A stretch of DNA of 59,561 nt, the filler included, from Sphacelaria rigidula (taxonomy: Eukaryota): assembly GCA_964200075.2 (NCBI GenBank). It is 5 parts of 5 records of this genome, joined end to end, with 100 filler letters (N's around TTAATTAATTAA, not from the genome) between each part and the next. Parts side by side here need not be neighbours in the genome. Positions count along the whole stretch, not along the records: positions 23,869 to 35,699 come from CAXNAA020004447.1; 4 more parts are not named here. One strand, given 5' to 3'. Shown one piece after another: positions 11,835-53,376 of the stretch (the stretch's first letter is position 1; each line of letters begins with the position of its first letter). Both the position numbers and the translations under genes were made by a program. The notes under the pieces are model-generated. The model was given only the letters and a program-made list of their open reading frames with translations, did no database searches and was not told the DNA's origin.

Positions 11835-11934
11835 NNNNNNNNNNNNNNNNNNNNNNNNNNNNNNNNNNNNNNNNNNNNTTAATTAATTAANNNNNNNNNN
11901 NNNNNNNNNNNNNNNNNNNNNNNNNNNNNNNNNN
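11835..11934. other. Artificial contig linker N44-TTAATTAATTAA-N44
   Basis: Six-frame stop linker within Ns, 100 bp, identical at four positions. Confidence 0.97.
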
Positions 11935-13300: not shown

Positions 13301-15354
13301 CGTCATCTAGGGTGTGAAAGACAGGCCTTCATGTCGATAATCAGAGGCAAGGGTAGGAGGCTCTCCTCGTTGCTGTATCCAGACATCCTTCAAACCTCCA
13401 CCGGAATTCACCATGCCAAGTGTTTCATCACAAAGGGCGTTAGACTCTCCACGTTTCACACCCACTACCGTGGTCGGGAACTCAGTACACCACTCTAGGA
13501 GGGCAACTTTCCGATGTCAAAGATTATCTCGATTTCGTCCAATCGGCGTTTCCGACGTAGTACATCGCCCGTCACACGGGAGCGAGCGGTTTTGCTCGCA
13601 ACTCCTTACGTCGCCCTGCGCTTCATTGTCCGCGACGAGCTGAAAAACTCGAAGCTCCACATTTTCAGAGATGCGAATTTACGGCGACTGTTGATCGACC
13701 ACACCCTCCAGCTTCGTCCTAATAGCGGGTTCGTTTGTCTCATTGCAGATGCATCTACCGCTGGCGTTATCACAGGGACGAAACGGAATGGAGACCACCA
13801 GTGTGAGGAAGGTCTTTCTCACGTTACACAGCGACGGCGATTGTGCACCACATGGCACGAGTGTATTTGCTTCAAAACCAGCGCGACCGCATGATGTGCA
13901 TGGCGTGCGCTCATACAGTAGATGGAAACATTGCAATGTCCTTTGTATCAGTACTTTTGTCACTGGGAAATACCATCACGAACGGGTTAACATATCGAAG
14001 AGGACACTGGAGTCTCCGGGGATCCGTCACACGCGCATGAACCGTCAACGGTTTGTTGCATGCTTCCGGTTTGACTTGTATTGCATTCGATCAAGTACGA
14101 AAGTCGGCCCGGGTTTCCTACTGCCACAACAACAGTACCGGAGAGAGACGTAGAGGTTTATTGAAGCACCGTTTATTGGAGTGAGAACAGCAAGGGATGG
14201 GGAAGAGGGGGGGAGGGGGGGGGAAGCGAAAGCGATTCAATCTGTCACACAAGCAAAATGTCTCCTCGAGACTAGCAACAAAGACACACGAGACCAGCAA
14301 GTGGGCTGGGATTGCACAGACTGAATATCAGCAGCGACTCAGGTTAGTCGGCACACACGATACACTACCTTCCTTCAGCCCCGCCCCAAAATTCCCTTAC
14401 GGCGACAGGGCGAGAGAACTACCCATATCCCACGACAGGCACATGTAGCGGAAGACGTTACACACAGGTGTACAGTAAAATATAATAACCATGTACGGGA
14501 AGGCACCCACTTATAAGGTCGGTCGCCGCCCTCGTCAATCGACACCATGTGTCGGTAAGACTCGGTACATTTTGTGGAGGATTAGAAACAAATGCTAATA
14601 TCATTCTCAGGGATCCACAACACAACACACGCCACGTGCGCCATTCAAAACAGGAAAAAGGTTACGAAGAACACGAACCAGCCGCAGGTTTGCCAAAATC
14701 TGTCCTCCCCTTGCCCATGCATATCTTCGACCACCCCGATTTCCAGCACACACGACCTTGTAATGTTTCATTTGTCTCCTCCATAGCCCCTCACCTTTCC
14801 CGCCAGTACCTACACAATCGTCATCCCTGGAGTTACATGGGAGACACAAAAAGAGTCTTTGTTACACTCTCGGGTACTACAGTACGGCAAGCTGGAAGGA
14901 TAGCAGCTCCAGGGCTCAAGCTCACGTTGCCATCATGACTGTAGGACAAGTGCTCAAAAAGTCATGATCGCCCTCGCTACTCCTCCCCCAACGTGTGTAC
15001 ACTTCGGGGTGCTTCCAAGTACAGGCGGCTGGACCAAAGGATGGAGTGGGACAGGGCACAGATTCCTTATCTTGCTTCATCTTAGAATGACACCACCCAT
15101 GCTTGAGCTACTGTGTGTACACAAGACAAGCAAGTGTGGTCGTCGTGTCCCTCATTCAACATCGACCTCTTCTCCCCTGGACACACTCGTGACAAAGCTG
15201 CCTCTACCCCCCGCCCATGCATCACCGGACGAACATTCGACCGTTGTCCATTTTGCCTGGCGTAATGCACCGGCAATAATAGTAAATCCGCATGCCGCTC
15301 AATCCCTCCTCCTTAAACTCATCGTGCCTTTCCCCTCACCATCGCATCATCAAA

Positions 15355-23768: not shown

Positions 23769-23868
23769 NNNNNNNNNNNNNNNNNNNNNNNNNNNNNNNN
23801 NNNNNNNNNNNNTTAATTAATTAANNNNNNNNNNNNNNNNNNNNNNNNNNNNNNNNNNNNNNNNNNNN
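23769..23868. other. Artificial contig linker
   Basis: N44-TTAATTAATTAA-N44. Confidence 0.97.
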
Positions 23869-25609
23869 GTTGCTGCTTTCAACGACGATCTGACTTGAAA
23901 TTTCGAGCAACAAATGCCCCGAAATACCCCCACCCCTATCGTAGGATGGCTCCCTACTAGTACCTTACGTCCTCCGAAATAAAAAGTTTGAATTCATGCA
24001 GCGGGGCACATGACGACATTTCCCACAAGTAATACCCCCGAAACCTTCGACCCGAGAAGTTGCTGAGATGGGGAGTAAAACATCGGCTAACGTGTTATTT
24101 TCCACCATATCACAGTTGCACTACCTCACTACCCAGAAAGGAAAACGGGATCTCTGTGTTGGCTAGGGAGCTACCTCGAGAGTTTCGTACGTCCCCCTCT
24201 AAAAGGGGTCGAGATTCCTGGGTGCTACATGGACTGTGAGAATACCGTAGTTGGCTGATGTTTTTTTTGGGGGCTAAAACCAACGGTGACAAGTCCGTCT
24301 TGGGTCGGAAACAATGGGTGGGTGGGGGGTAGGAGGAGAGCGGGACAGCTTCTACGAGAAACGTCACGTGTCCTGTTGGTCATGTGTGGTATAACTCCCA
24401 CAGGTAATAGAAGAGTCATTCAAGCATACAATCGGTAAACTCCAAGTGCCCTCGGCACTGTCAGGCCAGATTATCAGAGCGAAACTCTTCGAGCGCTTAG
24501 GGAGTTGAATCACGAGCAAATACGAACAGATCACGTCAAGTCGCCTGTACAGAATAGCTGGAGACCAGGCACAACATTAAGTAGCATGGAAAACACGCAT
24601 GTCTTCTGCACACCTCCAGAGCCAACCCTATCACAATGCAGAGGGACTTGCGGAAAGGTACCGCATGGTACTTGTGGACAGCATCATCCTTCAGCCAACG
24701 ATGGAATGCATGGCTGGTCCTTCTCGACATGTCAATTGTCACGGTGAAATAACCTGAAAATATCAGTATGGGCACACTCTGTTTTCAGCATGCCGCGTAT
24801 TTACCTCGTTGTACACAACTGCGACTCTTGGGGCCCGTATCGTCCGTGGCCGTGTCCCCACCATACTGGGCATTGCCTCCCCTCCCCCCACGTCTCTACT
24901 GCAGCGTTCACATACCCTGCTATGTACAGGTCATCCCACTGTACAGACATTTTGCACAGCTACAGACAACAAGCTCTGCTATCACTGCCTGCACTGAGTG
25001 TACAGTAAGTGCCCAAATGTACACGAGTATAGTGCTGTACAGAGAAGACAAACAGTGCAGTACGGCGGCACGTATGGGTCCATAGGAAACGTCTTCTGGG
25101 GTGAATTTTACATCAAGGCAAGAAATACTGTGTGAGGTTTTCGAGTTTCTCCACCAAACCTTGTACATGTGTTCCTTGAACTCTCCCGGGACGCATCATT
25201 TCATTATTTTTCTTGGAGGGCATTCTGTACCGCCTTCCGGGGGGCTTCATGTTGGAAGGCCCGGAAGCCCGTAGAGAACGGAGAGAACATTACATGATGT
25301 CAAGAATACAATTTTCCATTTGAGCATCAATACCTACGGCACTGCCGACTTTGAGGGCGATCTGAGCTTTTCTACGACAGATACAGGGGACACCGTCACG
25401 AGGCTCTCTGGGTCTTCCGTGCGTATCATTGGTGGATATTAAACGACGCCGACACCCGACATCACCGAAACATCATGGTTTTGGGTATAATTCGACCCCC
25501 GTAGTTACCGTTTTAACAATTTGATTTTATCGTTGGATTCCCGTATCGATGACAGCTACTACGATTTGAAGCATGTAGGGATTGAGTGAAAATCGAGCTT
25601 GGTATTCGT

Positions 25610-25835
25610 AATTTAGATCTCGGAACAGTTTGAAGGGCGCTGATTGGCTGAGACTCATTTTCTTCCATGGCTCCAACGCTATGGCCTAGAACAAAAATCC
25701 GGCTATGTCATCCCCTTCGTCTCTTCATTGCGGTCAGTATGATACCATATATGCGACTATTGGGTGCGTATTGCGGAAGGCATTTGCTGATGACACAATT
25801 TTGGGTGGTCACCGTGAACCAGCCTGTATGCAGAT
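25610..25835. repeat. Dispersed repeat family C copy
   Basis: Matches 9620-9800. Confidence 0.65.
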
Positions 25836-26059
25836 TTGAAGAGTAAGTCTCTTGGGTGGACAAGCATTCCTTCTAGAAAACCAGGTATTCCATCTTTGCC
25901 GGTCACGTATATTCTAGACAGATATTTGGCATATTCCATTACACACGTCCCGAAACAAACAGATAACTCATCTTGTGCTGTGCCCACATGGTTTGACGTG
26001 AACAGGTATTCCGCATGTGCTCGGCAGATACATTCTACAGTGAACAGATGTTCCATGTG

Positions 26060-26420
26060 TGGTACGAATGAAATAGTCATTTCGGCCAAGCCGTCGGGGC
26101 ACATCGAGACGACGGCTGCGTCATGAGCATTTAGCATTCCCTACACCGCTCTCCGTTCGCGTTCAAGAGTCGTTTCCGTCCCCCTCCCTGTCTCATCGTC
26201 GAGATATACGATGTCCTTGAGGATGATGTCGTCTTCGCTGAATCGCACGAGAACGATCCGGAGTGCCGCAGTAAACGAAGCATTGAACAGCAGCGGAGAC
26301 AGCACACATCTTTGGCGCAGTCCCTGAGTTACCTCAAACCAGTTCGAGAGCTCCCCGTCGTCCATTCGTACGTGGGCCGGCATGCCATCAAGGAGTTGGC
26401 GGATGTGCTCACATATCTTT
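26060..26420 (-). mobile_element. Degenerate non-LTR (RTE-like LINE) reverse transcriptase fragment
   Basis: SNWFEVTQGLRQRCVLSPLLFN (canonical GLRQGCVLSPLLFN), followed after a stop by MLNAHDA (decayed YADD). Confidence 0.85.
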
Positions 26421-29400
26421 CCCTCACGACTAAGTGTGAGTAGGATGGCAATTTCTGTACGGGTAGCTTCGGTCAAAATGACACCCATGAAAACTAGCAA
26501 GTATTGAAAAAATATATATGGAATGGCCTGTCCAGTCGGTCGATAGCTTTTACATTGCATTTCTTCGTACAGAGCGAGTTCCACCACGATGAAGTCAAAA
26601 TTACCCATCACAAGTCTGATCCATAATACCAATACAAGTAGTTGTACTACAGGATTATAGTGCAGAGCCCAGCTCAATGCGGTAATGCCGCACCTGCGAT
26701 CCGCCGTACTCTACTAGGACCCCCACAGGGTGTATATCCCGTGCTCGGGATTGGCTTTCACTATACGTGGGGATGACTGAAAAAATTGCACCCAAGCAAA
26801 TATGGGTCGATAGTTCCAAAGCAGAGACACATCCCCACTACTTCTCGTTAGTTCCACGCTCATGCCAGAGCCCCCCCTCCCCCCCTTCCTTCTTTTGCGA
26901 TGATTCCCAGGAAGTAGTCTCGCGGGCTTACCGTTACGCAAGACGAGTTGTACAGAGTCGTCCTTACACACTGTGCAGCTCATCGACGCCGCAGAACCGC
27001 ACATACGAGTCGCAAACGCTTGTCAGGGTGGTTCACAGGACACTATCTACACACATGTGAAATATTCGCCACCTTGCACCAAACTTCACCGTTGTCTTCG
27101 AATTTATGGCCAGCACAGTATGTGTATACGCGCGCCGTCACATGCTACCCTGTCAGACGCGATACATGTGATGACGTCTGTGTAGGCTCACCACTGCAGC
27201 TCATGGCCACCAGCGACAGCCATGACATAGCACAGCACAGCACAGCAGGAAAAGCTCATTCGTACCATTCCGATGATGAACATGGGGTGCATTTATGTGC
27301 ACAACCTCCTATGAAACCAATCTGATATATTTTCAGAAATCATGCCGGTTCAGTACAAACGCTCGAAAAACATGAAGTTGCGGGAGCGAACATCCTCTTT
27401 TCACGCCGCGTATCTGACGAATCGTTCTAAGACATCAAACTGTCGTTGCACAAACCGTATTCCGATAGTGCGTGTCGGAGTTGCTGTGTCGATCTATCGT
27501 GCTGTCCTGGCCGCACGACGTTTACCGACGACCTCACGACACTGCTCCCATTATTGTACAACGAAAAACGCGCCGTAGGAAGAAGCTGGCTCGGACCAAC
27601 GCTATGCACACCCGCGATCCATCAACCAGCGGCCAACACCTACAACGCATTGTTCCGCCTACATTTATTCCCTAACCTAGGTAACAATAGTGGCTATTGT
27701 CAACATAACCCTCTATTTGTTTTCTGTTTCGATTCTGAATTCCGCCCCGGCGATATGTCCTTCGATATTCTGTTGAAAACACAAATCTTGAATGAGTCGT
27801 TGTACAACTGGGACATTGCTGGAAGTTGCACAGAGGCCGTTGGGTGATGCAAGTAGCACGAAACTACTTGGGAACGTTTCCGTGCAGGAGCTTCAGGTCT
27901 TGCCACATGTGTTTTGATCGAAACCATACTCGAGATGGGTTAGCCTTATAACTGATTGAAGCTCTTTCAGCTATATCTCGTCGACATACGCGAATTGAGC
28001 CGTGATGCGCATATCTTATCATCTTTTTATTTAGGAGACGATGCTCACGCGCGGGAAAAGCCTGGACCGATGATTTCTCGTAGATTGAACGCTATACCGG
28101 GTAAATCGTAAAGCGTACGGATACAGTGTTCATACCAAAGTCTACACGGAACCCCGCACGATACGTGGAGCGAGTGATGATAATATTTCGTGCGAACAAT
28201 CCCTGGAGCACGGGCAAACGATCGGTACTTTCAACTCCACGTCAAAATACCTGCAGGCACCGCATTCGTGTTTCAAGCCGTGTGTGCTTTTCAGCGGCCA
28301 TTCGCCACCTCGGAGCCAAGTGAATATGAAAAGTGGGCTAAACTCCTTTGGTGGGGCACTGCAAAGTGTCCAAGACGTGTGATGGCGATATTCCCTGTTG
28401 AGGGATCACAACCTGTCAAAGGTCCAGAAATGAAAAATACGACCTCAAACAAACACGAACCGCAACGAGGGTCGGACGAATGAATGATTCGTCCGCAAAT
28501 TACTTGATTTTAGTATATTTGATTCGTACCGTACGAATCAATTAATATTGAGGCTTTGATTTCAGCGTTGCAATCTAGGTACGCGTAGCCCAGGCACAGC
28601 GAATGGCGCAAAAGTTGCGTGGAGACCTGTGTGACCAGCGGTCGACCTTTTCTCTCTTTCGACTAATCAGGCCTAAGAAATCATGGATTTGGTAATTGGA
28701 ATCGGGGATGATTCGTCCGAACCGTGAATCGTAAGAAACGGTTCGTGCTACACTAAATGTCCTTACCTCATGCAACAAAGATAAATTCCCTGTCGCAGTT
28801 TTTTTCATCATGCCGTAGTGATTCTCCACACCAACGTTCGAAGCACAAGCACCAAAACTGGGCTGGCAAATGGCCTTCCAAATTCTGCGCCAATTCTCGA
28901 GCGACCTGGGCTGTGAATCTGGCATTCTTACCTCAATTTCGGGCATTAGAAGTTCAAATTTGACATTTAGAAGCGTGAGGGCATGAAGAAACAAACGTAC
29001 ATGTAGGACATAACTTCAGGAATTCAGGGTTCATGTTTAGCGCCGTTCTAGTGAAATATGGATATTGACTTTTGTCCTCAACTCATGGAGGAACAAATTA
29101 TCGATTCATCAAATAATTATTTCCATGCTATACTAAATTTTAAAAGTCGCTTTTGAGAACGACATCGCCCTGACCCTTCCATTAAGCCATGATACGGCAC
29201 GTGTAGTTTTTCTGGCGCTGTTGAATAGCCACGCTGCAGCCCCCCCCTCCCACCCCCCCACACTCGCGCTCCCTCAAATCTGTACCCGAGGGGATTGCTC
29301 ATGTGATGCTTGATAGCAATCGCTCACTCTATCGAGTATTATTTCTGGCTTTTGATCGTGCACAACATTTTCTCGCTGACTCGTCGTGTGTGACCTGTTT

Positions 29401-29668
29401 GCCTCACGTTCGATACTGTGAAATATGTCAGTCATTCCTCTGTGATAAGACATCCTTTAGCATCAGTGTTGTGCTTTACATGCGCCCTGTAACATGACGA
29501 CCCTTTGTTTCGTAGCATACTCGTGCTTGATCCGCCTCCGATTCCTATTGCAACAGCGTAGAGGGCGTCCCATCCGCTGGAATCATTTTGCGAGTCGGCG
29601 TCAGCTTACATGAAGCGTCTTCTCGGTTGAAGGCAGGCAGACGCTTTTTCTCCAGGATCTGTGCAACC

Positions 29669-32353
29669 ATGACAATGACATTTGCACTGCAAAACGGTTC
29701 AACTTGCTTTGGCCCACGGCTCACAAAATATGTTGCGCCGTCTGGGTATTTGTGCTACTGTGAGCAGTACATTTTCGAAAGAGCGCCATCGAAGGAGCTG
29801 ACGGCCGACATTGCTAGAAGAAGGTATATCAACAAGCACGCCCGGGCAGGAATGGTGGATGTGAGGAACAAAATATGCAACTACGAGGGCTGCTTCACGC
29901 TGCCGACGTGTAGTATGGCGGGAAGCACGAAGGCAGCGTTCTGTTTTGAGCACGCCAGGGCGGGAATTGTGAGTATGGCGAAAACGATGTGCGGCTACGA
30001 GGGCTGTCCCTCGCTTGCATCGTATGGTGTAGCGGGAAGCAAGAAGGCGGAGTTTTGCTCCAAGCATGCCAGGGCGGGAATGGTGAGTATGGCGAAAACG
30101 GTGTGCGGCTACGAGGGCTGCTCCACGCTTGCATCGTATGGTGTGACGGGAAGCGAGAAGGCGGAGTTCTGCTCCAAGCATGCCAGGGTGGGAATGGTAG
30201 ATGTGGTGAACAAGACGTGCGGCTACAAGGGCTTCTCCACCCAGCCGTCGTATGGTGTTGCGGGGAGCACGAAAGCGAAGTTCTGCTCCAAGCATACCAG
30301 GGCGGGAATGGTGAATGTGAAAAAGAAGACGTGCGGCTGCGAGGGCTGTCCCACGCTTGCATCGTATGGTGTTGCGGGAAGCAATACAGCGGAGGTTTGC
30401 TCCCAGCATGCCAAGGCAGGAGTGGTGAATGTGAGGAACAAAAAGTGCGGCTACGAAGGCTGCTTCACGCTGCCGTCATATGGTGTGGCGGGGAGCAAGA
30501 CAGCGGAGTTTTGCTACAAGCATGCCAAGGCCGGGATGATGAATGTGAAAAAGAAGACGTGCGTCTACGAGGGCTGCTTCACGCTGCCGTCGTATGGTGT
30601 TGCGGGAAGCACGAAGGCGGAGTTCTGCTCCAAGCATGCCAGGGCCGGAATGATGAATGTGAAAAAGAAGACGTGCGTCTACGAGGGCTGCTTCACGCTG
30701 CCGTCGTATGGTGTTGCGGGAAGCACGAAGGCGGAGTTCTGTTCCAAGCATGCCAGGGCGGGAATGGTGAATATGAGGGCCAAAATGTGCGGCCACGAGG
30801 GCTGCTCCGCGCGTCCGTCGTATGGTGTTGCGGGAAGCACGAAGGCGGAGTTCTGTTCCAAGCATGCCAGGGCGGGAATGGTGAATGTGGGGAACAAGAC
30901 GTGCGGCTACGAGGGCTGCTCCACGCTGCCGTCGTATGGTGTGGCGGGGAGCAAGAAGATGGAGGTTTGCTCCAAGCATGCCAGGGCGGGAATGGTGAAT
31001 ATGAGGGCCAAAATGTGCGGCCACGAGGGCTGCTCTACGCAGCCGTCGTATGGTGTGGTGGAAAGCACGAAGGCGGAGTTCTGCTCCAAGCATGCCAGGG
31101 CGGGAATGGTGAATATGAGGGCCAAAATGTGCGGCCACGAGGGCTGCTCCGCGCGTCCGTCGTATGGTGTTGCGGGAAGCACGAAGGCGGAGTTCTGTTC
31201 CAAGCATGCCAGGGCGGGAATGGTGGATGTGGTACACAAGACGTGCGGCTACGAGGGCTGCTTCACGCTGCCGTCGTATGGTGTCGGGGGAAGCACGAAG
31301 GCGGAGTTCTGTTCCACGCATGCCAGGGCGGGAATGGTAAATGTGAAGAATATTTTCGGGTACGAGGGCTGCTTCACGCTGTCGTCCCATGGTGTTGCGG
31401 GAAGCTCGAAGGCGGAGTCCTGTTTCAAGCATGCCAGGGCGGGAATGGTAAATGTGAAGAACATTTTCGGGTACGAGGGCTGCTTCACGCTGTCGTCCCA
31501 TGGTGTTGCGGGAAGCTCGAAGACGGAGTTCTGTTTCAAGCATGCCAGGGCGGGAATGGTTAGTATGAAGAACAAGATTTGCGGGTACGACGGCTGCTTC
31601 ACGCTGCCGTCGTATGGTGTGGCGGGAAGCACGAAGAGGGAGTTCTGTTTCGAGCATGTCATTGCGGGAATGGCGAATGTGGTGAGTAACAGGTGCGGCA
31701 AGAAGGAGTGCTCCAAATTACCTCTCGACAAGGAAACACTTTGCCAACAGCATGCTAGTAGTTCACACAACACAGCTGCCGTTTTCGACACGACGAAGCT
31801 CAACCCTGGTAAGGGCACCCCCGGCCGTAGCGCAACGGAGGGTGGTGAAGGAAGCGTTGCTGATATACGAGGAGTTAAGCGCAAGCGCGCAGCACTGTCG
31901 GGTTCTGGTGCAAATGACGGCGTAGGTGCTCGCCGTAGTTTGTGCGCCGGTCCCAGGCAGGGGGAGAGATCACCGTCGCTCTCGGGACGTCCACATTTGC
32001 TCCTGAGACACCCACCTCCGATGGCTGATGACGAGGTGTCTCTGCGGGCAGGAGCAAGAGCAGGAATGAAGGTGGAGTTGGCAGTCCCTTCTCCTACACA
32101 CGGTGGCGATGGGACGAGGATGTTTCAGAAGCGGGCTTCTCCTTCAAGCCGTTGGGGTAGCGAAGGTGGTGGTAGTGGATTCACCAGCAGTGGTTGTGGT
32201 GGTACTGGAGGGGGTTTTGGTTCGCCAGCAACGGTAACTAGATGCTTGGGCACATTTGATCACGTGGCGTTTGAAGTGGTTGAGGAGGATTTGGACGTGA
32301 AGTTGGAGCTAGGAGTACCTGGTGCTTCTCCTCGGGCATCCGATACACGGTAG
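29669..32353 (+). CDS. EsV-1-7 cysteine-rich repeat protein (16 full repeats plus partial ones, disordered C-terminal tail)
   Basis: Uninterrupted ORF with 38-aa C-x4-C-x16-C-x2-H units (KTCGYEGCFTLPSYGVAGSTKAEFCSKHARAGMVNVKK). First in-frame ATG is 29669 (caaccATG); the true start is uncertain. Confidence 0.88.
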   Translation: MTMTFALQNGSTCFGPRLTKYVAPSGYLCYCEQYIFERAPSKELTADIARRRYINKHARAGMVDVRNKICNYEGCFTLPTCSMAGSTKAAFCFEHARAGIVSMAKTMCGYEGCPSLASYGVAGSKKAEFCSKHARAGMVSMAKTVCGYEGCSTLASYGVTGSEKAEFCSKHARVGMVDVVNKTCGYKGFSTQPSYGVAGSTKAKFCSKHTRAGMVNVKKKTCGCEGCPTLASYGVAGSNTAEVCSQHAKAGVVNVRNKKCGYEGCFTLPSYGVAGSKTAEFCYKHAKAGMMNVKKKTCVYEGCFTLPSYGVAGSTKAEFCSKHARAGMMNVKKKTCVYEGCFTLPSYGVAGSTKAEFCSKHARAGMVNMRAKMCGHEGCSARPSYGVAGSTKAEFCSKHARAGMVNVGNKTCGYEGCSTLPSYGVAGSKKMEVCSKHARAGMVNMRAKMCGHEGCSTQPSYGVVESTKAEFCSKHARAGMVNMRAKMCGHEGCSARPSYGVAGSTKAEFCSKHARAGMVDVVHKTCGYEGCFTLPSYGVGGSTKAEFCSTHARAGMVNVKNIFGYEGCFTLSSHGVAGSSKAESCFKHARAGMVNVKNIFGYEGCFTLSSHGVAGSSKTEFCFKHARAGMVSMKNKICGYDGCFTLPSYGVAGSTKREFCFEHVIAGMANVVSNRCGKKECSKLPLDKETLCQQHASSSHNTAAVFDTTKLNPGKGTPGRSATEGGEGSVADIRGVKRKRAALSGSGANDGVGARRSLCAGPRQGERSPSLSGRPHLLLRHPPPMADDEVSLRAGARAGMKVELAVPSPTHGGDGTRMFQKRASPSSRWGSEGGGSGFTSSGCGGTGGGFGSPATVTRCLGTFDHVAFEVVEEDLDVKLELGVPGASPRASDTR
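29870..31753 (+). repeat. Coding minisatellite, 114-bp unit (two units of 111 bp)
   Basis: Direct tandem repeats underlying the EsV-1-7 array. Confidence 0.95.
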
Positions 32354-32949
32354 ATAACCCCATTCGTTGTACCGTTCTCGTTGCTCAGATGGCCCGGGTA
32401 GGGAGGTTATAGGAGGTTATTGGTGTGTGCTCACGTATGGTGTCAGCTGTCCGAAACGATAATTGGTTGTTGTAGTGTCTTTTCTTCGACAATGCGAGGC
32501 AGTTCTTGATTTCGATGGGGTCCTGATATAAGAGGGGTTTTGCTAGATTGGAGGTCTTGCGTTTGATTGAGAGTAAGGACACCATAAACAGAATTCCTAA
32601 TCTTTGTATTGACCCGTGCTTGTCGGAGAATACTTGACCCAGTCAGGCTAGGACAGGCTTGAATGAGAGCCCTCCGTCGTGGGATGAATCCAATGTATAC
32701 TTTGATTGTATTGATGCGTAAATATACAACTGAGCTCGAGAAATGGTCTATTCATGTCTGGGATGGTTTCAGTTCTGACATGCTCGTGTGGGCCGTGTGT
32801 GTGAGTAGCAGTTTGACAAGGGCTAGCCGAGCGTACATGTACTACAGCAGTCGGCCACCCGATAAACTGGGACCGCACTGCTCGACTGGTAGTTCGTACT
32901 TTTTCATACTTTTTTTGACTGATGGTGCCATCGGTACTTACAAAACGTG

Positions 32950-33196
32950 CACAGGCACCATAGGTAAGGTAGGTACCCGGTACCGGTATTTTGGACATCT
33001 CGTACCCTACCGATACCGGTCCAATACGGTATTTTGAAATGTCATACCTGCGATACTTACGGTACCAGGGTATTTCGAGATTTCAGTGCTTACCGTACCC
33101 GCCCAATCCGGTATTTGGAGATGTCATACCTACGATACCTACGGTAGTAGGGTAATACGTTACGCTCGGTACGGTACCTTACCTACGGTGCCTGTG
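32950..33196. mobile_element. MITE with 22-bp TIRs; a decayed second copy lies at ~33270-33450
   Basis: cacaggcaccataggtaaggta ... taccttacctacggtgcctgtg (1 mismatch). Flanks aaaacgtg/aaaacttc may be a degenerate 8-bp TSD. Confidence 0.7.
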
Positions 33197-33949
33197 AAAA
33201 CTTCGACTACCCAACTTGCACCCAGATCTGAAACGCTTCGCACTGCCACATGACAGTTTTGAATTCGGTACAGAGGGTAAAGCAGGAACCCGGTATTGGT
33301 ATTGGGGACATCTCATGCCCTACCGATACCGACTCAATCCGGTACTTTCGAAACTCATACCTACAAGACCTACGATACCACGTTACTTCGAAATTTCAAT
33401 ACCTACCGTACCTGCCGATTCCGGTATTTTGACATGTCACACCTACGATTCTCTCAGGGGTATCTGAGAGGTATCCGTGTGGAAAATAAAAAAATGGCGG
33501 TGGTGGTGGTGGTGGTGACCCCTTGTCATTCCACGGGCCAAACCCTTGCACTGTTTCAAATCAAGTGTCCTTCACACCAGTAACCACCTCATTCCGCATA
33601 TATGAATAGTATAAGGATCCGCAAGAAGTTTCAGGTCATTTCGTCCTCCCTGGGTTGAGTTTGACCCATGGCTGCTAATGCGGCTGTGCCCGGCGCTGCA
33701 CGGACGGTGGGTCGGAGAGATGCAACACACGCGGACAAAAACACTTTGGAATAGTATATCTCTGTCAATACGGAAGCAAAATAAACGTATGGCATATCAA
33801 ATTAAAGATCTCCTTCATCACAAATGCATCCACACGTAACAGGGGATTCTCTAAAATGAGGTTGATCAATGAAATGAGATTTGAAGACCCTAGCCCTTGA
33901 ATGACAAAAAGCCCTCAGGAGTACCGCACGACTGCGCTGATGTGCAATT

Positions 33950-35230
33950 TTGGGGAGGAGTAGGAAGTGCGTCCGTGGTTGCACGTGCCGCCCATCCCTG
34001 GTTAGCTGCGGGCGACGGGCCATAACAACGTTTGTTTGATTGTCGACGATGCTCTCGCTTTTGTTTGTCTCGAGGCCCATGTCCAGAATAAAATCTCAGG
34101 TGTCAAGGTGCTCGTCAGTGACGTGCTGGGGGGACATCACTGCCAACGCAGTGATGTGCCGAGCGGATGATTGGGCGTCCACTGTCCTGAAGAAGGGCAC
34201 ATAAAAAAGTATCACTGATCTCCTTTGAGGGTCGATGCACAGCTTGAATAATAGATTGCACGAATGCACCGTACTGCAAATACCGGACGAGCTTTCCAAT
34301 GAGGTTTGAGCATATATGATCCAGCAATGTCTCAGTCGAGAGAAAAATCGTTGGCATCCACCCCAAAATCGCTTCGCATGGTCCCGTTATACACCCCATC
34401 GCAACACCCCATCCATGCTACATGACAGCATCTCGACCCCGCCCTGAACTGTACGTTCGCGTCCACATCCCGGCCTGTATGTTTTCACTCTCCAACGCCA
34501 CTGCAACTCGAGACTCCAGCGTCATCACTACTGCTATTGCAATCATCACCATCATCACCATCGCCATCACTTCCAGTATCACAGTCGTCATGGTCATCAT
34601 CGGGGGCTACCTCGTCCTCCAACCCCTCTCGACTCGTGTCACGTCCGACCCTCAGCCACCGTCGCTCAAACCCTGGTCCACGTACAACCAGATCCCCAGG
34701 AGTGACCGCGATAGGCTGCTTCGCGGTGAGCCTCCCTTTCCTCTCTCCACTCTCTTGCACACTGGCTATTACAGCGTGCTGCGTACCATCTGCGCTGCCT
34801 ACCGCAGCGGTAATGGACGAGTCTCTGGGGCCGTTGTGTGGTATTTTCGACCTTATCCCCATCACAACCCCCTCCCCGCCCGTATCCCATTCCAAATGTT
34901 AGAATGGGCAGTTGTCTGAGACCTCCAAGTACAGTGCCGCTTCCGGCTGGCAGGCTTTTCTGCCGGGTTCTACGAGGCGCCTGAGTTGTCTGTTGGATGC
35001 GACCAATACCAGGCGGATACATTGCTGATCCAGGATTTCTTGAGGTTTCGAATCTACAGGCTCTCTTTTGTACACCCAGTCCTTTCCCCACAAGGGAATT
35101 TCAGGGTATACGACCTTCTGCTGGCCGGGCTTCGTGATGAGGAACAGCTCGTTCAACCGATTGAACGTCGAACGCTGCGACCGAAATCGATAGAGGACAC
35201 GGCAGAGACGGCCGATGGCAACGAACATAA
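33950..35230 (-). mobile_element. Degenerate Ty1/Copia LTR retrotransposon fragments
   Basis: IVDNQTNVVMARRPQLTRDGRHVQPRTHFL (~33960-34050) matches Copia RNase H 'DNQ.AI..A.NP..H.RTKHIDVR.HF'. Weaker integrase C-terminal resemblance at 34900-35230. Confidence 0.55.
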
Positions 35231-35699
35231 GAAAGTCAGGTCGAGATACGAAGGGGTGGTGGATGGAATCAGCGCTCAGACAGGGGTCTCAAAACCACGA
35301 TGTGTACTTCTTCGCGAAACCACATGTCCCCTGGGACATCGCAATGTGGGCGCGCCCATAAATGGCCCCGAAATAAATTGTTTTTCTTCACAAAGTGCGG
35401 TAAAGCGGGAAGGAAAAAAACTCGGTACCACGCAGCAAAGAATACTACATCTCCAAGGGTGCACGAAAAAAACAAGACGTACACATATGTCCCATTTTTT
35501 TAACTTGGACCTCTCAGGGGGAGGGGGTAGGGTACTAGACCACCCCCCCAAAAAAAAAAAAAAAACTATACAAACTCCCATGTGAACCGATGCTATACTA
35601 AGTCCCATACAAAATGACGCAGCGTTGGGGGGGGGGGGGGGGTGCCCACTCGTTCCTTCCCTTAGTCATTTGAACCTTCCCACAGGAGGCCTTTCGGGG

Positions 35700-35799
35700 N
35701 NNNNNNNNNNNNNNNNNNNNNNNNNNNNNNNNNNNNNNNNNNNTTAATTAATTAANNNNNNNNNNNNNNNNNNNNNNNNNNNNNNNNNNNNNNNNNNNN
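35700..35799. other. Artificial contig linker
   Basis: N44-TTAATTAATTAA-N44. Confidence 0.97.
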
Positions 35800-47630: not shown

Positions 47631-47730
47631 NNNNNNNNNNNNNNNNNNNNNNNNNNNNNNNNNNNNNNNNNNNNTTAATTAATTAANNNNNNNNNNNNNN
47701 NNNNNNNNNNNNNNNNNNNNNNNNNNNNNN
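47631..47730. other. Artificial contig linker
   Basis: N44-TTAATTAATTAA-N44. Confidence 0.97.
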
Positions 47731-48795: not shown

Positions 48796-49278
48796 CTGTT
48801 GCACCAGCACCCAGGGAGCGGAAAGGCATGGCCAATAAAGAAGGCGGCGGCAACGCAGCGCGGGAGAGGTCAATGCAGAAATACCGCCGTTCGGGGTTCA
48901 ATTCGACACGCTGAACATGTTATGCCTGTGAAGATACACTGTGTTGAATCGACTTCGAGGAATCGTTCTGCTGTTGTCCGATGATGTTCATTTTACTACT
49001 ACAGGCGCAACGCAGTGGACACCGCAGCGACGTTTCGTCTACAGTAACAAGGGAAGCGAGGTATTCGACTTTCGATTAAAGACTTGGCGATGGGTAGATC
49101 ATCCTCGAGAAATTACGGCCTCGATACCTCGGAGCAGCTTCTTGACTCGACGGCAACAAAGGTCGCTGTAATCGGTGGACGGGTGACGATGTCATTCCCC
49201 AGAAAACAAATCCGAAACGAGCTGCCCTCTCTTCTACATATTGGGATCAAAATCGCCCACGCAAGTACAGCAACGCAC

Positions 49279-51438
49279 CGTTAATCGTAGACCACGGTCT
49301 GCCACACTGTAAGCAAGTCGTGCTCGTCCCTTGCTCGCTGACTTGACTCTAATCTTGGCATCATCAACATCAACATCGGGATCGCTAGTGCATGGTCTGT
49401 CTCGTTCCTGGAACTTGTTCGATGGGACTGCGGAACCGCCGTTTTTATCTCCTGCTGTCGCTACCTGTGACCCGCCTGGTTTCCTCGTTGCCAGCCCGGA
49501 ACCGCCAGGTGAGGAAACATGGGATAGTGGATATGCTGTGTACAGCGCCGTAAGTTTGGCTTCACGATTCCTTGGGAGTGACGCGGCAGACTCTGGTGCG
49601 TCAACCTGCTTGTGTTCAAAGGGCACCGCAGGGCTTCCTTTCTGATGTTGCTGTCGTTTCCACTTGGCACGACTTTTCCTGGCCTTCGATGAGGTGCCTA
49701 GAGTATGCATGCTGTCTGACACTCGCGTAGGGGATTGAGACCCGCCCCTATCCTTTTTCCAGCTTCGCCAAGACCGTGTCCTCGCCAAAGCATTCCCTGC
49801 ACTGGTGACAGGACGTCGGCGGCTAGGGCTTCGTTGCGGCCGAGGTGGAGGTGTGGTCCATCCTGTCTGGCGCGCCATGGGCAACTGACTCGCAGAAGCT
49901 ATTGCGGTTCGGCACTGTTCAGAGAGTGATATGTTCACCTTGTTGGTGACATTCTCTTCCTGTGTATTTTCATCCCTTTCTGCAGTGGTCACGGCAGTAG
50001 CAGCAGCATTAAGTGTAGTATCACGTCTACAAGGTTCGGTGTGTTCGCCGGCATCCGTTCGACCTTCGACCCTGTCATCTATTTTATCACCGAATGTGGG
50101 CGACACCTCGACATCCGCAAGAGGTGCTCGTCTTCCATTTGTGGGCACTCGTCGCGAGAACAATGGTTCATCAACCGTATGGCCTTCTCCCGCGTATTTT
50201 CTTATCGTCGCCTGGGGAGTCGTCGTCGGAGGTTCCGCAGTCTCTGGGTTCACTGAAAGATCCGCGGAATCGCCGTGCGTGACTGCATTTAAAGACGCAA
50301 GCTGCGCTTCCAATGCTAGCCTCTCCGCTCGGGCTGCACTAAGCCTTGCCCTCTCTTCGCGCACACGCTGTCTTTCTCTGCCTTGAGCTTCAAACATGAC
50401 ATCCTCTAGCCGTTGGCTCTCTTCTGCTTCTTGCACAACTATGTCTTTCTCGTTTACGTGCCTAGCACTGGCCATGGCTTCTCCCGTTCTCCTCTGTTCA
50501 CTTCGATCAGCAGACGCAAGCCTGTCCAATTCAGAACGGAACCTCTCTAACTCTCGCACCGCCTTCACCTCGTTCGGGTCTTCCTTCCTCTGGATAACAC
50601 CGGACATCTCACTCCCCTCCCCATCGCCCTCCTCGCCAAGAATTTCGCGTAGCTTCTCGGTCGAGAGATCCATGGCTCGCTCTGGTAGCGTCACTTCACC
50701 CTCCTCCTCCTGAAACGCGTGTCGCCGGAACCTTGGGATAGAGGCACGAGTAGCTGTGACGGAAGGGCTAGCACTCCTGGCCCTGGAGGGCGCCCCTCGA
50801 CTATTAGCACCTAAGATGGAAGATCGAGATGAAGACCCTGGCCTTCTCCTTCGTCTGGCAGCTTCGGCGGCATCCGCGTACCGTACGCCCCAGTCAACAG
50901 GAGACGGAGAAAACGACAGCCTTCCCGCCGCGAGCGATCTGGAGCCGAAGGAGGAGGATCGACCTCGTCTGTAGTGTCGCTTCTTTTGTTTCTGTCGCTG
51001 GTGTTCGCAGTCGACTAGACGCTGAACTTCTGTTTTCAGGCGCTCATTTTCCTCTCGCAAATGCTCGCTGTCGGCGATCAGCCTCGCAACTTGCCGCCTC
51101 TGGCTTGCCGCTGTGAGGGCTGCCGCGTTTCCGCTTCCGACGGCGTCAGGTGAATCTCCCGGACCAGCGGTCTTCTCTGGTGCCGTCTCCAACGAGTCAT
51201 CGATGTTCTGCGGGGCTCGTGTGGATGTGATTGTTTTCACTGCAGCGTGGAGGTCACTACCGACTCCCAACGATATTTTCTCTGCTGCTTCCACTGATTC
51301 TTTGGGGCCAGCGTCTGCTCGGAGGGTGTTGTCGAGGGCTTGCCGGAGCAACTGTTTCAGCCGGACGATTTCTGCCTGTGCGCGGGCCAGTAGTACTCTG
51401 TCGTCCACTACCTCATTCGGCCGCAAGCGAACCATGAC
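49279..51438 (-). CDS. Kinesin neck, coiled-coil and disordered tail exon
   Basis: 720-codon open exon, tag acceptor, ACG|gtgcgt donor. Continues ADRAKK|VMVRLRPNEVVDDRVLLARAQAEIVRLK. Confidence 0.85.
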
Positions 51439-51805
51439 CTATTCACGAGCAAAAAGCTGGCAGATAACGTTAACCTTGTTCGCGAGACGGGTATCATTTA
51501 GAAAACATAATAGTGTTCGCACGTGTTACGATTTCGGCGTGGTGAAAATTGGAGGCTGCCCTCCAAGAACAAAGGGCTCGTTTGGTGTTGCCGACAGAGT
51601 CGAAACTATTTTGCGGTGATCATTATAGTTGATTCTGTGAGTGGTAGTCGAGAAATATGAACATATATCAAAATGGGTCACGTTGTGGATCCACGCTCGC
51701 CTCATCTGTAGCGACTTTGATGCCATAGGCGTTAACGCCAAAGTGGTTATAGATAGGCTACTCGAACCCCATCACCTACCATATAATCCTGTCTTACATT
51801 CGTAC

Positions 51806-52752
51806 CTTTTTTGCTCGATCAGCAAACTGCAGCGTAGATACGGTGTCGTTCGTCTGCTCCGCAAGTGGAGATACACACGCGATTATTGTAGTTCTTGTGT
51901 TTCCGCCCAACGAGTCCTGCAAAAGTCGAGTGAGCTTCGAATCTCGATAGGGTACATGTGTCCTATGCTTCTCCGATAGCGCGGATACAACGTTGCCCAG
52001 GGCAGACAAGCTTTTGTTGATGTTCCGAAGTTCTTTGAAGTGAGTCCTCGTGATATTTATAGTCGAGTCCATTTTTTCCGAGCCAGCAAGGTCAACCAAG
52101 CTCAGTTTTGCCTGTCGGTACGTAACGTGTTCACCACTGCCGGCAGAAGCGGAAAGTCCACCGCTGCCGCACGCTCCTCCACCTCCTCCGCCCCCACTGC
52201 TTTCTGCCTCGACCATGAGCTGCATCACTGCGTGACTTCGGCTGCTAGCCTCATTATGCTGCGTGGCACGCACCCTTCGATTTGTAGCACCGACGTTGAT
52301 GTAGTGTAAAACATCCTGCGCCCCGGCTACCCGAAAAGATGACAGCCCGTTGACGAACACCCGTCTGTTCTCGTTCAGGGCACCTGGTCGTCTTCCCTCC
52401 GATCGTGCGGAGTAGTCCGGCGATCCACCAGCACGGTATGAATCGCTTTGCCTGCCGCTCCTCCGACGTCGCCGCCCACCGTTACTGCCAAACCCTTTAC
52501 TGCTACAGTTGCCCGCTGATGACTCTTCTCGAATTTGCAGGGATAATCCCTTGCTGGTGTGATTGCTTCCATCTTGCAGAAGGTCGACAATTTCTTCATT
52601 GTAGATTTGTAGAAAGGAGCACGTTACAGAGTAGGCAAACGTTTGATCCTCTTCGGAGATCGCTGCGAGGCGATCGAAGAGAAACTGCACGGACCGTGGT
52701 ATAACCCCCCAGTCTGCAGGGTGGTCGGGTAGCCGTGTTCCGCCACCTGGCC
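51806..52752 (-). CDS. Kinesin motor domain exon (switch I/II)
   Basis: SFLQIYNE, NEASSRSH, LVDLAGSE, INKSLSALGNV, HVPYRDSKLTRLLQDSLGGN; phase 1/0. Confidence 0.95.
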
Positions 52753-52994
52753 CTGTGGGGCAGTAGGGAGTGGGGGCATGGCTTGCTTCAGCTTTGAGGG
52801 TCAACAAGCGAGAGGCCTTTCAAACATGCGAATGGGAAGGTCGGCGAAAGTAAGCATGGCAATAGTTTGTTAGGGATTAACGTGGCACACGATGTAGATA
52901 CACACGAGTTGAGCATCTTGGCGACTACCACGCGTCCTCTAGTTTCGCCATACTATGCAGCAGATGTTATCGCCGTGCGCCTTAACATAATGTA

Positions 52995-53181: not shown

Positions 53182-53376
53182 AATGTACAAACATACATAC
53201 CGTGATGGTTTAATTCACGTGACGAGGGGTTTGCGCTTCACCTTCAGTGACACGGGTGCCTGTTTATGATCATACGTTAAGTACAATCAGTAGAGTGTAG
53301 CGTGGAGTTTGCATCAACATATTTCGGACCATGAACAAGTTCAACAGGAACAATAGCGACTCTTGCCCCAGCTCAC

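What the first reader, a model, noticed from the sequence alone, without database searches (positions are those of the whole stretch)
29870..31753. EsV-1-7 array with a fixed scaffold and two hypervariable patches: candidate repeat-coded recognition system
Seen: 16 full units keep GVAGS.KAEFCSKHARAGM largely constant, even at silent sites. Variation clusters just after the second Cys position (FTLP, PSLA, STLA, STQP, PTLA, SARP, STLP, FTLS) and in the linker (DVRN, SMAK, DVVN, NVKK, NVRN, NMRA, NVGN, DVVH, SMKN), reused as discrete alleles. Known: EsV-1-7 repeats occur in phaeoviruses and are expanded in brown algae (e.g. Ectocarpus IMMEDIATE UPRIGHT); to my knowledge their ligand is unresolved. 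Inference: the pattern resembles PRDM9 zinc fingers, TALEs or PPRs, i.e. a modular C3H zinc-binding array with a possible per-repeat nucleic-acid or protein code, perhaps in anti-virus or anti-TE defence.
Basis: partly seen in the sequence, partly recalled or inferred. Interest (0 to 1): 0.75.

Follow-up and report, generated by a model that had tools for sequence, protein, structure and literature searches.

The report
Long EsV-1-7 zinc-finger repeat gene
This is an unusually long but otherwise ordinary member of the large brown-alga family of EsV-1-7 cysteine-rich repeat proteins, and the idea that its variable residues spell a recognition code is possible but not shown.

Summary
The array is real. 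An open frame at 29588-32353 (+) holds 16 full 38-residue EsV-1-7 units, one partial unit and one short end unit (Pfam PF19114, E 2.7e-224).

Variation is enriched after the second Cys and in the linker: 8 of 38 codons carry 39% of amino-acid differences. The same enrichment appears in 60 of 70 related arrays.

Other parts of the observation do not hold:
- The "fixed scaffold" string is exact in only 5 of 16 units, and 32 of 38 codons vary in amino acid.
- Silent sites diverge as much in the scaffold as in the patches.
- Three units have lost a zinc ligand.
- The "reused alleles" follow identical DNA blocks of up to 141 nt, so they come from unit duplication or conversion.

dN/dS in the patches is about 1 (0.9-1.6), against 0.4-0.55 elsewhere. 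That fits relaxed constraint, not PRDM9-like selection.

One exploratory result favours unit-specific constraint. In 7 close collinear protein pairs the hot positions are better conserved than other variable positions, 0.85 against 0.75.

Verdict: a new, long member of a known family. The recognition code remains a hypothesis.

The parts
29588..32353 (+). Open reading frame of 921 codons (stop to stop 29531-32353) encoding the EsV-1-7 repeat protein. The true 5' end is unsettled. The first in-frame ATG is at 29669.
29766..29768 (+). Possible splice acceptor, with AG at 29766-29767 and the exon starting at 29768, which is codon 61 in phase 0. Two contigs begin to fit the window at 29766 and carry 119 and 153 unfitted letters upstream.
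   Evidence: table 8: X5 record 19 has 0 other letters; X3 record 11 has 21 other letters and may be a paralogue. Sequence read. Inference; weak.
29825..29875 (+). Partial, degenerate first unit (YINKHARAGMVDVRNKI) that matches only the C-terminal third of the repeat model and has no Cys.
29879..31696 (+). 16 full EsV-1-7 units in the register G-Y-E-G-C...x-C: 14 of 114 nt and 2 of 111 nt (31247-31357 and 31358-31468). The ligand pattern is C-x4-C-x16-C-x2-H.
30233..30235 (+). Second-Cys codon of unit 4 reads TTC (Phe), so a zinc ligand is lost.
31352..31357 (+). Linker end ATT TTC (Ile-Phe) where other units have K-x-C. A 3-nt deletion plus Cys to Phe removes the first Cys of the next unit. 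The same change recurs at 31463-31468.
30743..30883 (+). 141-nt block identical to 31085-31225, three units downstream. It spans a linker, a zinc knuckle and a post-Cys patch, and marks recent block duplication or gene conversion.
31694..31753 (+). Short terminal unit CGKKECSKLPLDKETLCQQH (C-x4-C-x10-C-x2-H).
31754..32350 (+). Low-complexity tail rich in G, S, R, A and P. From residue 728 it has net charge +5 and pI 9.5. KRKR lies at 31877-31888. No relative was found among 48 homologues.
32354..32873 (+). Sequence after the stop codon covered by exact contigs that also cover the end of the frame (32304-32873). Possible 3' UTR.
   Evidence: table 8, records 15, 22 and 31. Inference.

Best explanation
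This is a host nuclear gene of a brown alga or close relative. [quoted passage not shown]

**Likely architecture.** Each 38-residue unit most likely folds around one zinc ion, held by the Cys before the unit, the Cys at position 5, the Cys at position 22 and the His at position 25. The fold is a small beta-rich knuckle. The 16 units are strung together by short basic linkers into a strongly basic chain, followed by a disordered tail carrying KRKR.

**Likely action.** The protein probably acts as a multivalent zinc-finger protein that binds a polyanion, most likely nucleic acid. The literature hypothesises this for the whole family.

**How the array evolves.** It behaves as a coding minisatellite. 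Whole units and multi-unit blocks are duplicated or converted by unequal recombination, and this spreads a few older unit types through the array. That is why the variants look like reused alleles.

**Why the patches vary.** The positions that differ most lie in the loop after the second Cys and in the flexible linker. Replacements there accumulate at about the silent rate, while the rest of the unit is under moderate purifying selection.

**Shown here:** family membership, repeat anatomy, block duplication, and the pattern of constraint.

**Inferred:** zinc binding, nuclear location, nucleic-acid binding, transcription.
For: **Family**
- PF19114 matches with 16 stretches, E 2.7e-224.
- All 48 relatives found carry PF19114. 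The named ones come from Sphacelaria, Ectocarpus, Scytosiphon and Nannochloropsis. A further 112 hits, query included, came from a second search.

**Host context**
- The 11.8-kb piece holding the gene (23869-35699) has no giant-virus gene among its open frames of 150 residues or more. There is only a weak reverse-transcriptase fragment.

**Fold**
- The four-unit AlphaFold2 model has mean pLDDT 86.8 and pTM 0.44. Each unit has strands at YGV and MVN. pLDDT dips to 73-82 in the 10-residue blocks that contain the linkers.
- The single-unit model has pLDDT 85.2.

**Charge**
- The array has net charge +43 over 632 residues and pI 9.19. 211 repeats from relatives average +2.0 each.

**Minisatellite behaviour**
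- Exact blocks of 141, 92, 72, 69, 68, 65 and 60 nt are shared at offsets of 1-4 units.
- Unit pairs 9/12 and 14/15 differ at 4 and 6 of 114 nt.

**Constraint**
- Pairwise dN/dS is 0.42 in the scaffold, 0.96 in patch 6-9 and 1.23 in patch 32-35.
- Tree counts give 0.55, 1.60 and 1.13 for the same three classes.

**Literature**
- Passages describe the family as possibly a new class of zinc finger, with 2018 proteins in 31 genomes, often in tandem gene clusters.
- The family has been hypothesised to be zinc-finger transcription factors.

**Hint of transcription**
- In runs X3, X5 and X7, exact contigs on the unique ends of the gene have word depth 13.7-30.8. Exact contigs on flanking non-repeat DNA have 2.7-3.9.
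- In run X1 both classes have 63-81 (table 8).
Against: - 3 of 16 units lack a zinc ligand, against roughly 7 of 305 repeat units in relatives (Fisher p 0.0099). Whole-unit dN/dS is 0.58. Part of the array may therefore be decaying.
- The 5' end and the start codon are not settled.
- The kind of the sequencing runs is not on record. Contig depth is a poor measure of expression, so transcription is only hinted at.
- No solved structure matches convincingly. The best single-unit hit is Z 3.0 to a RING domain. Foldseek E-values are all 3.8 or worse. No chain of 48161 reaches Z 2 for the four-unit model.
- Nothing here shows zinc or nucleic-acid binding.
- The relaxed-constraint reading of the patches competes with the result that hot positions are better conserved than other variable positions in 7 close collinear pairs: 157/184 against 528/703, odds ratio 1.93, p 0.003.
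Confidence: 0.68

Rival explanations
1. Repeat-coded recognition array. Each unit reads one element of a nucleic-acid or protein target through a few unit-specific residues next to the first zinc knuckle (positions 6 and 8) and in the linker (32, 34, 35). Shuffling of units by recombination then creates new specificities.
For:
- Position 8 is among the four most variable positions in 19 of those 25 arrays.
- Random sets of 8 non-ligand positions reach the observed mean in 139 of 20000 draws.
- Family-wide, position 8 is mostly R, Q, I, L or K.
- In 7 collinear pairs of at least 70% identity, hot positions are conserved at 0.85 against 0.75 for other variable positions. Six of the 7 pairs go that way (p 0.003).
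- The array is strongly basic.
- A single EsV-1-7 domain sits at the N-terminus of a transposase (passage).
Against: - In this array patch dN/dS is about 1, and the N:S contrast with the rest is not significant (p 0.075).
- 32 of 38 codons vary, and replacements are not over-dispersed.
- Variability across positions forms a continuum, not a discrete class.
- Over all 13 pairs, hot and other variable positions are equally conserved: 219/303 against 831/1147 (p 0.94).
- In the 6 pairs below 70% identity, hot positions are less conserved, 0.52 against 0.68. The 70% split was chosen after seeing the data.
- Units within one protein are not independent observations.
- The comparison group of other non-ligand positions includes structural glycines and aromatics, which inflates the contrast.
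Confidence: 0.15
2. A young, partly decaying duplicate with no function of its own. The array expanded recently by unequal crossover and is drifting towards a pseudogene. The long frame stays open only because a stop-free unit was copied many times.
For: - 3 of 16 units have lost a zinc ligand, more than in relatives (p 0.0099).
- The first unit is partial and has no Cys.
- No clear start codon context or 5' exon was found.
- Other frames across the array are also open, for example 29989-31563 (+) at 524 aa and 30476-31657 (-) at 393 aa. Frame length alone therefore proves little.
- The gene is flanked by high-copy repeats (table 2).
Against: - Scaffold dN/dS is 0.42-0.55, below 1.
- The frame stays open for about 600 nt beyond the repeats and about 290 nt before them.
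- Contig depth over the unique ends of the gene is several-fold above the flanking DNA in three runs of two studies, but not in the DNA-like run.
Confidence: 0.13
3. A gene of an integrated phaeovirus (endogenous giant-virus element), not a host gene.
For: - The motif was first described in Ectocarpus virus EsV-1.
- EsV-1-7 genes occur inside viral inserts of brown-alga genomes (passages).
Against: - No viral hallmark family appears among the 3 open frames of 150 residues or more scanned within 23869-35699.
- The best relatives carrying a source name are brown-alga and Nannochloropsis proteins; most rows are unnamed.
- Only 11.8 kb of true context is available, because the window is a concatenation of pieces.
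Confidence: 0.03

Closest known systems
EsV-1-7 cysteine-rich repeat proteins of brown algae (Pfam PF19114 / IPR043822), including Ectocarpus IMMEDIATE UPRIGHT
   Same: - Same motif and ligand spacing, same tandem repetition, and basic repeats.
- Relatives at 39-59% identity in Sphacelaria, Ectocarpus and Scytosiphon.
- The literature describes a hugely expanded family of unknown biochemical function.
   Different: - It has 17 repeat hits (16 full and 1 partial). The maximum is 12 among 148 relatives of 286-1612 residues scored with the same model. IMM is said to have five repeats (passage).
- No relative above 59% identity was found, and none for the N- or C-terminal parts.
- Three units lack a ligand.
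Coded repeat arrays: PRDM9 and KRAB C2H2 zinc fingers, TALEs, PPRs (their properties are recalled, not tested here)
   Same: - Tandem units with a conserved frame.
- Variation enriched at a few recurring positions.
- Minisatellite-like shuffling of units.
   Different: - Variation is spread over 32 of 38 positions.
- There is no excess of replacements at the hot positions.
- No binding data exist.
- The fold is not a C2H2 finger: the model has only short strands and no recognition helix.
SBP (SQUAMOSA promoter-binding) DNA-binding domain, first zinc site
   Same: - The first SBP zinc site is of the Cys3His type (passages).
- The four-unit piece gives a match to positions 1-37 of the 75-position SBP profile (E 6e-4).
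- From recall only, the SBP spacing is identical, C-x4-C-x16-C-x2-H.
   Different: - The match is below Pfam's cut-off, 20.5 bits against 27, and is seen in 3 of 43 sequences scanned.
- There is no second zinc site.
- SBP structures did not appear among the fold-search rows.
- This is a lead, not membership.
RING / B-box and the nidovirus helicase (nsp13) zinc-binding domain
   Same: - Weak fold resemblance of one unit: RING of MEX-3C at Z 3.0, rmsd 2.4 over 38 residues; other RING and B-box domains at Z 2.1-2.6.
- nsp13 is among the top Foldseek rows, with TM 0.57-0.58 over 38 columns but E above 8.
- One relative, P0014, passes the Pfam cut-off for CoV_NSP13_ZBD, 41.3 bits against 27.7.
   Different: - All structural scores lie in the range that chance gives.
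- RING and B-box domains bind two zinc ions with eight ligands, whereas this unit has four ligands. The RING/B-box ligand count is recalled.

Membership tests
EsV-1-7 cysteine-rich repeat family (PF19114) | Match to the Pfam model above its gathering score | tested here: met
   725.1 bits against a cut-off of 25, with 16 stretches
EsV-1-7 cysteine-rich repeat family (PF19114) | C-x4-C-x16-C-x2-H ligand pattern in each unit | tested here: met
   Complete in 13 of 16 full units. Unit 4 lacks the second Cys, and the two units after the 37-residue units lack the first Cys. In relatives these columns are Cys or His in 245/245, 284/286, 302/305 and 302/304 repeats.
EsV-1-7 cysteine-rich repeat family (PF19114) | Tandem repetition of units of about 38 residues | tested here: met
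   Period 114 nt, 16.3 copies
EsV-1-7 cysteine-rich repeat family (PF19114) | Zinc binding | not testable with these tools
   Inferred only from the invariant Cys and His columns
Coded repeat arrays (TALE / PPR / C2H2 type) | Differences among units confined to a few fixed positions on an otherwise near-identical frame | tested here: not met
32 of 38 codons vary. The scaffold string is exact in 5 of 16 units.
Coded repeat arrays (PRDM9 type) | Excess of replacement over silent change at the specificity codons | tested here: not met
   Patch dN/dS is 0.96-1.23 pairwise and 0.91-1.60 on a tree. Fisher p 0.075 against the rest. Numbers are small and recombination among units disturbs the tree.
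Coded repeat arrays (TALE / PPR / C2H2 type) | Specificity positions differ among units but are conserved between orthologues | tested here: inconclusive
   In relatives only. Over 13 pairs: 0.72 against 0.72 (p 0.94). In 7 pairs of at least 70% identity: 0.85 against 0.75 (p 0.003). In 6 pairs below 70%: 0.52 against 0.68. The threshold was chosen post hoc. No orthologue of this gene was found.
Coded repeat arrays | Sequence-specific binding that follows unit order | not testable with these tools
   Needs binding assays
SBP DNA-binding domain (PF03110) | Match to the Pfam model above its gathering score | tested here: not met
   20.5 bits against 27, covering profile positions 1-37 of 75 only, in 3 of 43 sequences
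RING / B-box / nsp13 zinc-binding domain | Shared fold | tested here: inconclusive
   Best Z 3.0. Foldseek E is 3.8 or worse for the four-unit model and 6.7 or worse for the single unit. No chain reaches Z 2 for the four-unit model.
Integrated phaeovirus gene | Viral hallmark genes as neighbours | tested here: not met
   None among the 3 open frames of 150 residues or more scanned in 23869-35699. Only 11.8 kb of true context is held.

The most novel reading that the evidence does not exclude
EsV-1-7 arrays may be a modular reader of nucleic acid with a small set of unit-specific determinants: position 8 (the third residue after the second Cys) together with positions 6, 32, 34 and 35. These would be kept between orthologues and reshuffled between paralogues by minisatellite-type recombination. 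On this reading the large brown-alga family is a fast-diversifying set of sequence-specific regulators, comparable in logic to the KRAB zinc-finger genes of animals. This 16-unit gene would then read an unusually long target.
Probability: 0.12. Interest if true: 0.75.

Novelty: new member of a known kind. Interest (0 to 1): 0.3.

Why it matters
EsV-1-7 proteins form the largest orthogroup across brown-alga genomes (passage). They include the developmental regulator IMM, yet their biochemical activity is unknown.

This gene adds little to that picture by itself. It is one more family member, although it has the longest array among those compared here.

What may be useful is the family-wide pattern found while checking it. 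The same few positions (8, 35, 34, 6) distinguish units in most arrays, and they appear to be conserved between close relatives. That names concrete residues to mutate or swap in binding assays, so the zinc-finger-code question becomes testable.

If those residues turn out to be neutral loop positions, the family is better seen as a set of generic multivalent zinc modules.

Tried and rejected
**Searches that returned nothing usable**
- Whole genome: none is held for this window, so paralogues in the same genome could not be compared.
- Earlier scan notes: none on this genome.
- Orthologues: the best relatives are 39-59% identical over 29-50% of the protein. The metagenome scan gave 3 loci at 30-40% identity. 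No unit-by-unit orthologue test was possible for this gene.
- tblastn of 48 relatives against the rest of piece 3, with the array masked, found no further exon. The best E was 0.005, in a repeat region.
- BLAST of the N- and C-terminal parts against 48 relatives gave only repeat-derived or insignificant hits.
- The original IMM paper (Development 2017) is not held. What I say of it comes from passages of papers that cite it.
- A full-text search for 'EsV-1-7' found 11 papers, 9 of them listed. In the six whose passages I read I saw no binding data and no per-repeat code. Supplementary tables such as Table S17 of the Phaeoexplorer preprint were not read.

**Sequencing runs**
- No RNA holder is listed.
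- Contigs of X1, X3, X5 and X7 show many joints inside the array, for example skips of 1030, 1372, 578 and 240 nt and steps back of 1090 and 107 nt. Some have extra letters between the two sides. They are not clean multiples of 114, and the contigs come from a short-word assembly. I do not read them as length alleles.
- Little or no contig cover in X3 and X5 upstream of 29766 is noted only as an absence.

**Structure**
- There is no PDB sequence match for four units.
- A multi-repeat profile gave only chance rows, E 1.4 or worse.
- Foldseek and VIA-align found nothing for the four-unit model.
Whether the variable residues line one face could not be computed.

**Other**
- Inverted repeats of 40 nt or more in piece 3: none.
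- The Phe_ZIP Pfam hit (38.7 bits, 0 stretches) is rejected as an artefact of summing weak repeat matches.
- Entropy in this array correlates only weakly with family-wide entropy (Spearman 0.33, p 0.04).
Full report
**What is there.** Tandem Repeats Finder reports one array at 29833-31681 with period 114, 16.3 copies, 84% matches and no indels. It lies in a + strand frame, 29588-32353, of 921 codons, or 29531-32353 from stop to stop. Pfam gives PF19114 (EsV-1-7 cysteine-rich motif) with 16 stretches, 725 bits against a cut-off of 25.

Read in the register G-Y-E-G-C...x-C, there are 16 full units at 29879-31696. Fourteen are 38 residues long and two are 37. A partial, Cys-less unit precedes them at 29825-29875. 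A short C-x4-C-x10-C-x2-H unit follows at 31694-31753.

After the array comes a 199-residue tail rich in G, S, R, A and P, with KRKR at 31877-31888. A model built from the 16 units finds no second array in any frame of the window. The only other hit is a lone weak match at 14813-14932 on the minus strand (E 0.004).

**Context.** The window is not contiguous. Four joints of 44 N, TTAATTAATTAA and 44 N divide it into five pieces of about 11.8 kb. Only 23869-35699 is true context for this gene.

In that piece I found a weak reverse-transcriptase fragment and several stretches to which very many contigs map, which indicates high-copy repeats (table 2). There are no viral hallmark genes. The kinesin exons at 51.8-53.8 kb belong to another piece. 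No whole genome is held.

**Checking the observation.** Positions 6-9 and 32-35 are 8 of 38 codons and carry 39% of the mean pairwise replacement differences. Their mean amino-acid difference is 0.56, against 0.26 at other non-ligand positions.

Three parts of the description do not hold.
- **The scaffold is not fixed.** The quoted string is exact in 5 of 16 units. 32 of 38 codon columns vary in amino acid. The minimum number of replacements per non-ligand codon is no more clumped than a uniform scatter (index of dispersion 0.66). The patches stand out mainly because their variants sit at intermediate frequency, while scaffold variants are mostly singletons.
- **Silent sites are not constant.** pS is 0.245 in the scaffold and 0.26-0.34 in the patches. 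9 of 19 scaffold codons have synonymous variants.
- **Three units lack a zinc ligand**. In relatives the figure is about 7 of 305 repeats (Fisher p 0.0099). That comparison favours intact repeats, because only model hits were counted.

**Why the variants look like reused alleles.** The array contains exact shared blocks of 141, 92, 72, 69, 68, 65 and 60 nt at offsets of one to four units. The 141-nt block, 30743-30883 equal to 31085-31225, carries a linker, the next zinc knuckle and the next post-Cys patch together. Units 9 and 12 differ at 4 of 114 nt, and units 14 and 15 at 6.

The alleles are therefore copies spread by unit and block duplication or conversion. This is how a coding minisatellite behaves. 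They are not independent recurrences.

**Selection.**
- Nei-Gojobori pairwise counts give dN/dS of 0.96 for positions 6-9, 1.23 for 32-35, 1.00 for 32-37 and 0.42 for the rest.
- Counting changes on a tree of the units gives 1.60 (S 4, N 14), 1.13, 0.91 and 0.55. The N:S contrast between patches and the rest has Fisher p 0.075.
- Minimum-state counts give N:S of 19:7 in the patches and 50:21 elsewhere.

The patches therefore evolve at about the silent rate and the rest is moderately constrained. This is not the strong replacement excess known, from recall, for the contact codons of PRDM9. Numbers are small, and recombination among units disturbs any tree.

**The family at large.** Two searches returned 148 relatives, all carrying PF19114. 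Named sources include Sphacelaria rigidula, several Ectocarpus species, Scytosiphon, Pylaiella, Ascophyllum and Nannochloropsis. None exceeds 59% identity to this protein.

In 306 repeats from 47 of the first 48 relatives, the near-invariant columns are the three Cys, the His and Met30. Several Gly, an aromatic, Pro/Ala9 and V31-N/D32-V33 are strongly conserved. Its constancy here therefore reflects the youth of the array and is not a family rule.

With one family model this protein has 17 repeat hits, against a maximum of 12 in the 148 relatives. The length limits of the searches apply to that comparison.

**A reproducible pattern.**
- Among the 25 homogeneous arrays (mean unit identity at least 0.6), the figure is 24 of 25 (ratio 1.50). 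The ratio in this array is 2.15.
- In those 25 arrays the most variable positions on average are 8, 35, 34 and 6. Position 8 is in the top four in 19 of 25.
- Random sets of eight non-ligand positions reach the observed mean in 139 of 20000 draws.

The clustering is thus a family property. It is a gradient, not a discrete class. The arrays are not all independent, since several are paralogues from one species.

**Are the hot positions fast-evolving or unit-specific?** I took 13 non-overlapping pairs of collinear relatives at 57-81% identity and compared aligned units.
- Over all 13 pairs, positions 6, 8, 32, 34 and 35 are as conserved as the other variable positions: 219/303 against 831/1147 (p 0.94).
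- In the 7 pairs of at least 70% identity, they are better conserved: 157/184 against 528/703 (odds ratio 1.93, p 0.003; 6 of 7 pairs).
- In the 6 pairs below 70%, they are less conserved: 62/119 against 303/444 (p 0.0016; 0 of 6 pairs). Three of these are same-species Sphacelaria pairs.

One reading is that these residues are kept unit by unit over short times, while whole units turn over at longer times so that aligned units are no longer orthologous. That is what specificity residues would do. However, I chose the threshold after seeing the data, and the protein-level test cannot separate selection from alignment error. I count it as a lead.

**Fold and likely action.** A four-unit AlphaFold2 model has mean pLDDT 86.8 and pTM 0.44. 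Each unit shows short strands at YGV and MVN and a bridge at Phe21. Confidence dips in the 10-residue blocks that contain the linkers. A single unit gives pLDDT 85.2. The one-face test could therefore not be run.

- No PDB sequence matches.
- Foldseek and VIA-align find nothing for four units.
- For one unit the best rows are RING and B-box domains at Z 2.1-3.0, and the nsp13 zinc-binding domain at E above 8. All are within chance range.
- Pfam gives a sub-threshold match to the first half of the plant SBP DNA-binding domain, 20.5 bits against 27, in 3 of 43 sequences. The first SBP zinc site is Cys3His (passages). The identical spacing is my recollection.
- Some relatives pass the Pfam cut-offs of Zf_WRKY19 and CoV_NSP13_ZBD.

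The array has net charge +43 and pI 9.19, and repeats of relatives average +2.0. Two further points fit nucleic-acid binding. A transposase has captured an EsV-1-7 domain (passage). Nucleic-acid binding is the most likely activity, but it remains an inference.

**Expression and gene model.** No run is on record as RNA. In X3, X5 and X7, exact contigs on the unique ends of the gene (29766-30009, 31620-31906, 32079-32324, 32304-32873) have word depth 13.7-30.8. Exact contigs on flanking non-repeat DNA have 2.7-3.9. In X1 both classes have 63-81 (table 8). This is what transcription would give, but contig depth is a poor measure and I treat it as a hint.

Two contigs start to fit at 29766 and carry 119 and 153 unfitted letters upstream. 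One is exact and the other has 21 mismatches. AG lies at 29766-29767 and codon 61 starts at 29768. A phase-0 acceptor with a missing 5' exon is possible.

**Literature.** Passages read describe:
- a cysteine-rich motif that may be a new class of zinc finger;
- 2018 family members in 31 genomes, often in tandem gene clusters;
- IMM as the one member with a known phenotype;
- a probable viral link;
- the hypothesis of zinc-finger transcription factors.

The original 2017 paper is not held. In the passages read I saw no binding data and no per-repeat code. The only search for this was the single term 'EsV-1-7', which found 11 papers.

**Verdict.** This is a real, unusually long and young member of a well-known family. 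It evolves as a coding minisatellite. Its variable patches fit relaxed constraint in this array. The coded-recognition idea is not excluded, and the family-wide analysis gives it a concrete, testable form, but no test here establishes it.

Noticed in passing
window 11835-11934, 23769-23868, 35700-35799, 47631-47730: Each site reads 44 N, TTAATTAATTAA, 44 N, which is a spacer with stops in all frames. The window is therefore five separate pieces of about 11.8 kb joined end to end. Features in different pieces need not be neighbours in the genome.
   Followed up: yes
window 51797-52819 (-) and 53273-53791 (-): Open frames matching the kinesin motor domain (E 8.8e-73 and 2e-19) look like exons of one kinesin gene. 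The adjoining 734-residue frame at 49237-51438 (-) may be its coiled-coil tail. All lie in piece 5 of the window.
   Followed up: partly
window 6808-6817 and 8497-8506: 10-N gaps lie next to long homopolymer runs of poly-C and poly-G. These are probably assembly gaps.
   Followed up: no
window 25161-25934, 28257-28643, 32901-33674, 34449-35222: Thousands of contigs from every run pile up on these stretches flanking the gene, which indicates high-copy repeats. A weak RVT_1 match (E 0.0065) lies at 26144-26710 (-).
   Followed up: no
window 14813-14932 (-): A lone 40-residue frame ending ...CSTRECNKDSFCVSHVTPGMTIV resembles a single degenerate EsV-1-7 unit (E 0.004 with a model built from this array). 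It lies in a different piece of the window.
   Followed up: partly
window 31358-31582: The two units that lost their first Cys both carry His in place of the usual Tyr at position 11, which is rare in relatives (12 of 288 repeats). Because the two units are copies of each other, this counts as one event. A substitute ligand is conceivable but untested.
   Followed up: no
relatives P0058, P0014 and P0068: Some EsV-1-7 proteins also pass the Pfam cut-offs of Zf_WRKY19 (36.2 against 27 bits), CoV_NSP13_ZBD (41.3 against 27.7) and TnpV (45 against 27) on the same residues. These models may overlap with, or be distantly related to, the EsV-1-7 motif.
   Followed up: partly
window 30011, 32004, 32042, 32277: Contigs of the laid runs read other letters than the window. 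30011 T>A (S142T) appears in all four runs, and 32004 T>C (L806P) in most. 32042 C>T is silent. 32277 T>A (V897E) appears in X1 only. These may be alleles or paralogues.
   Followed up: partly
window 29588-32350: Pfam's Phe_ZIP model scores 38.7 bits, above its cut-off of 25, but no single stretch passes. This is a false positive built from many weak repeat matches.
   Followed up: yes
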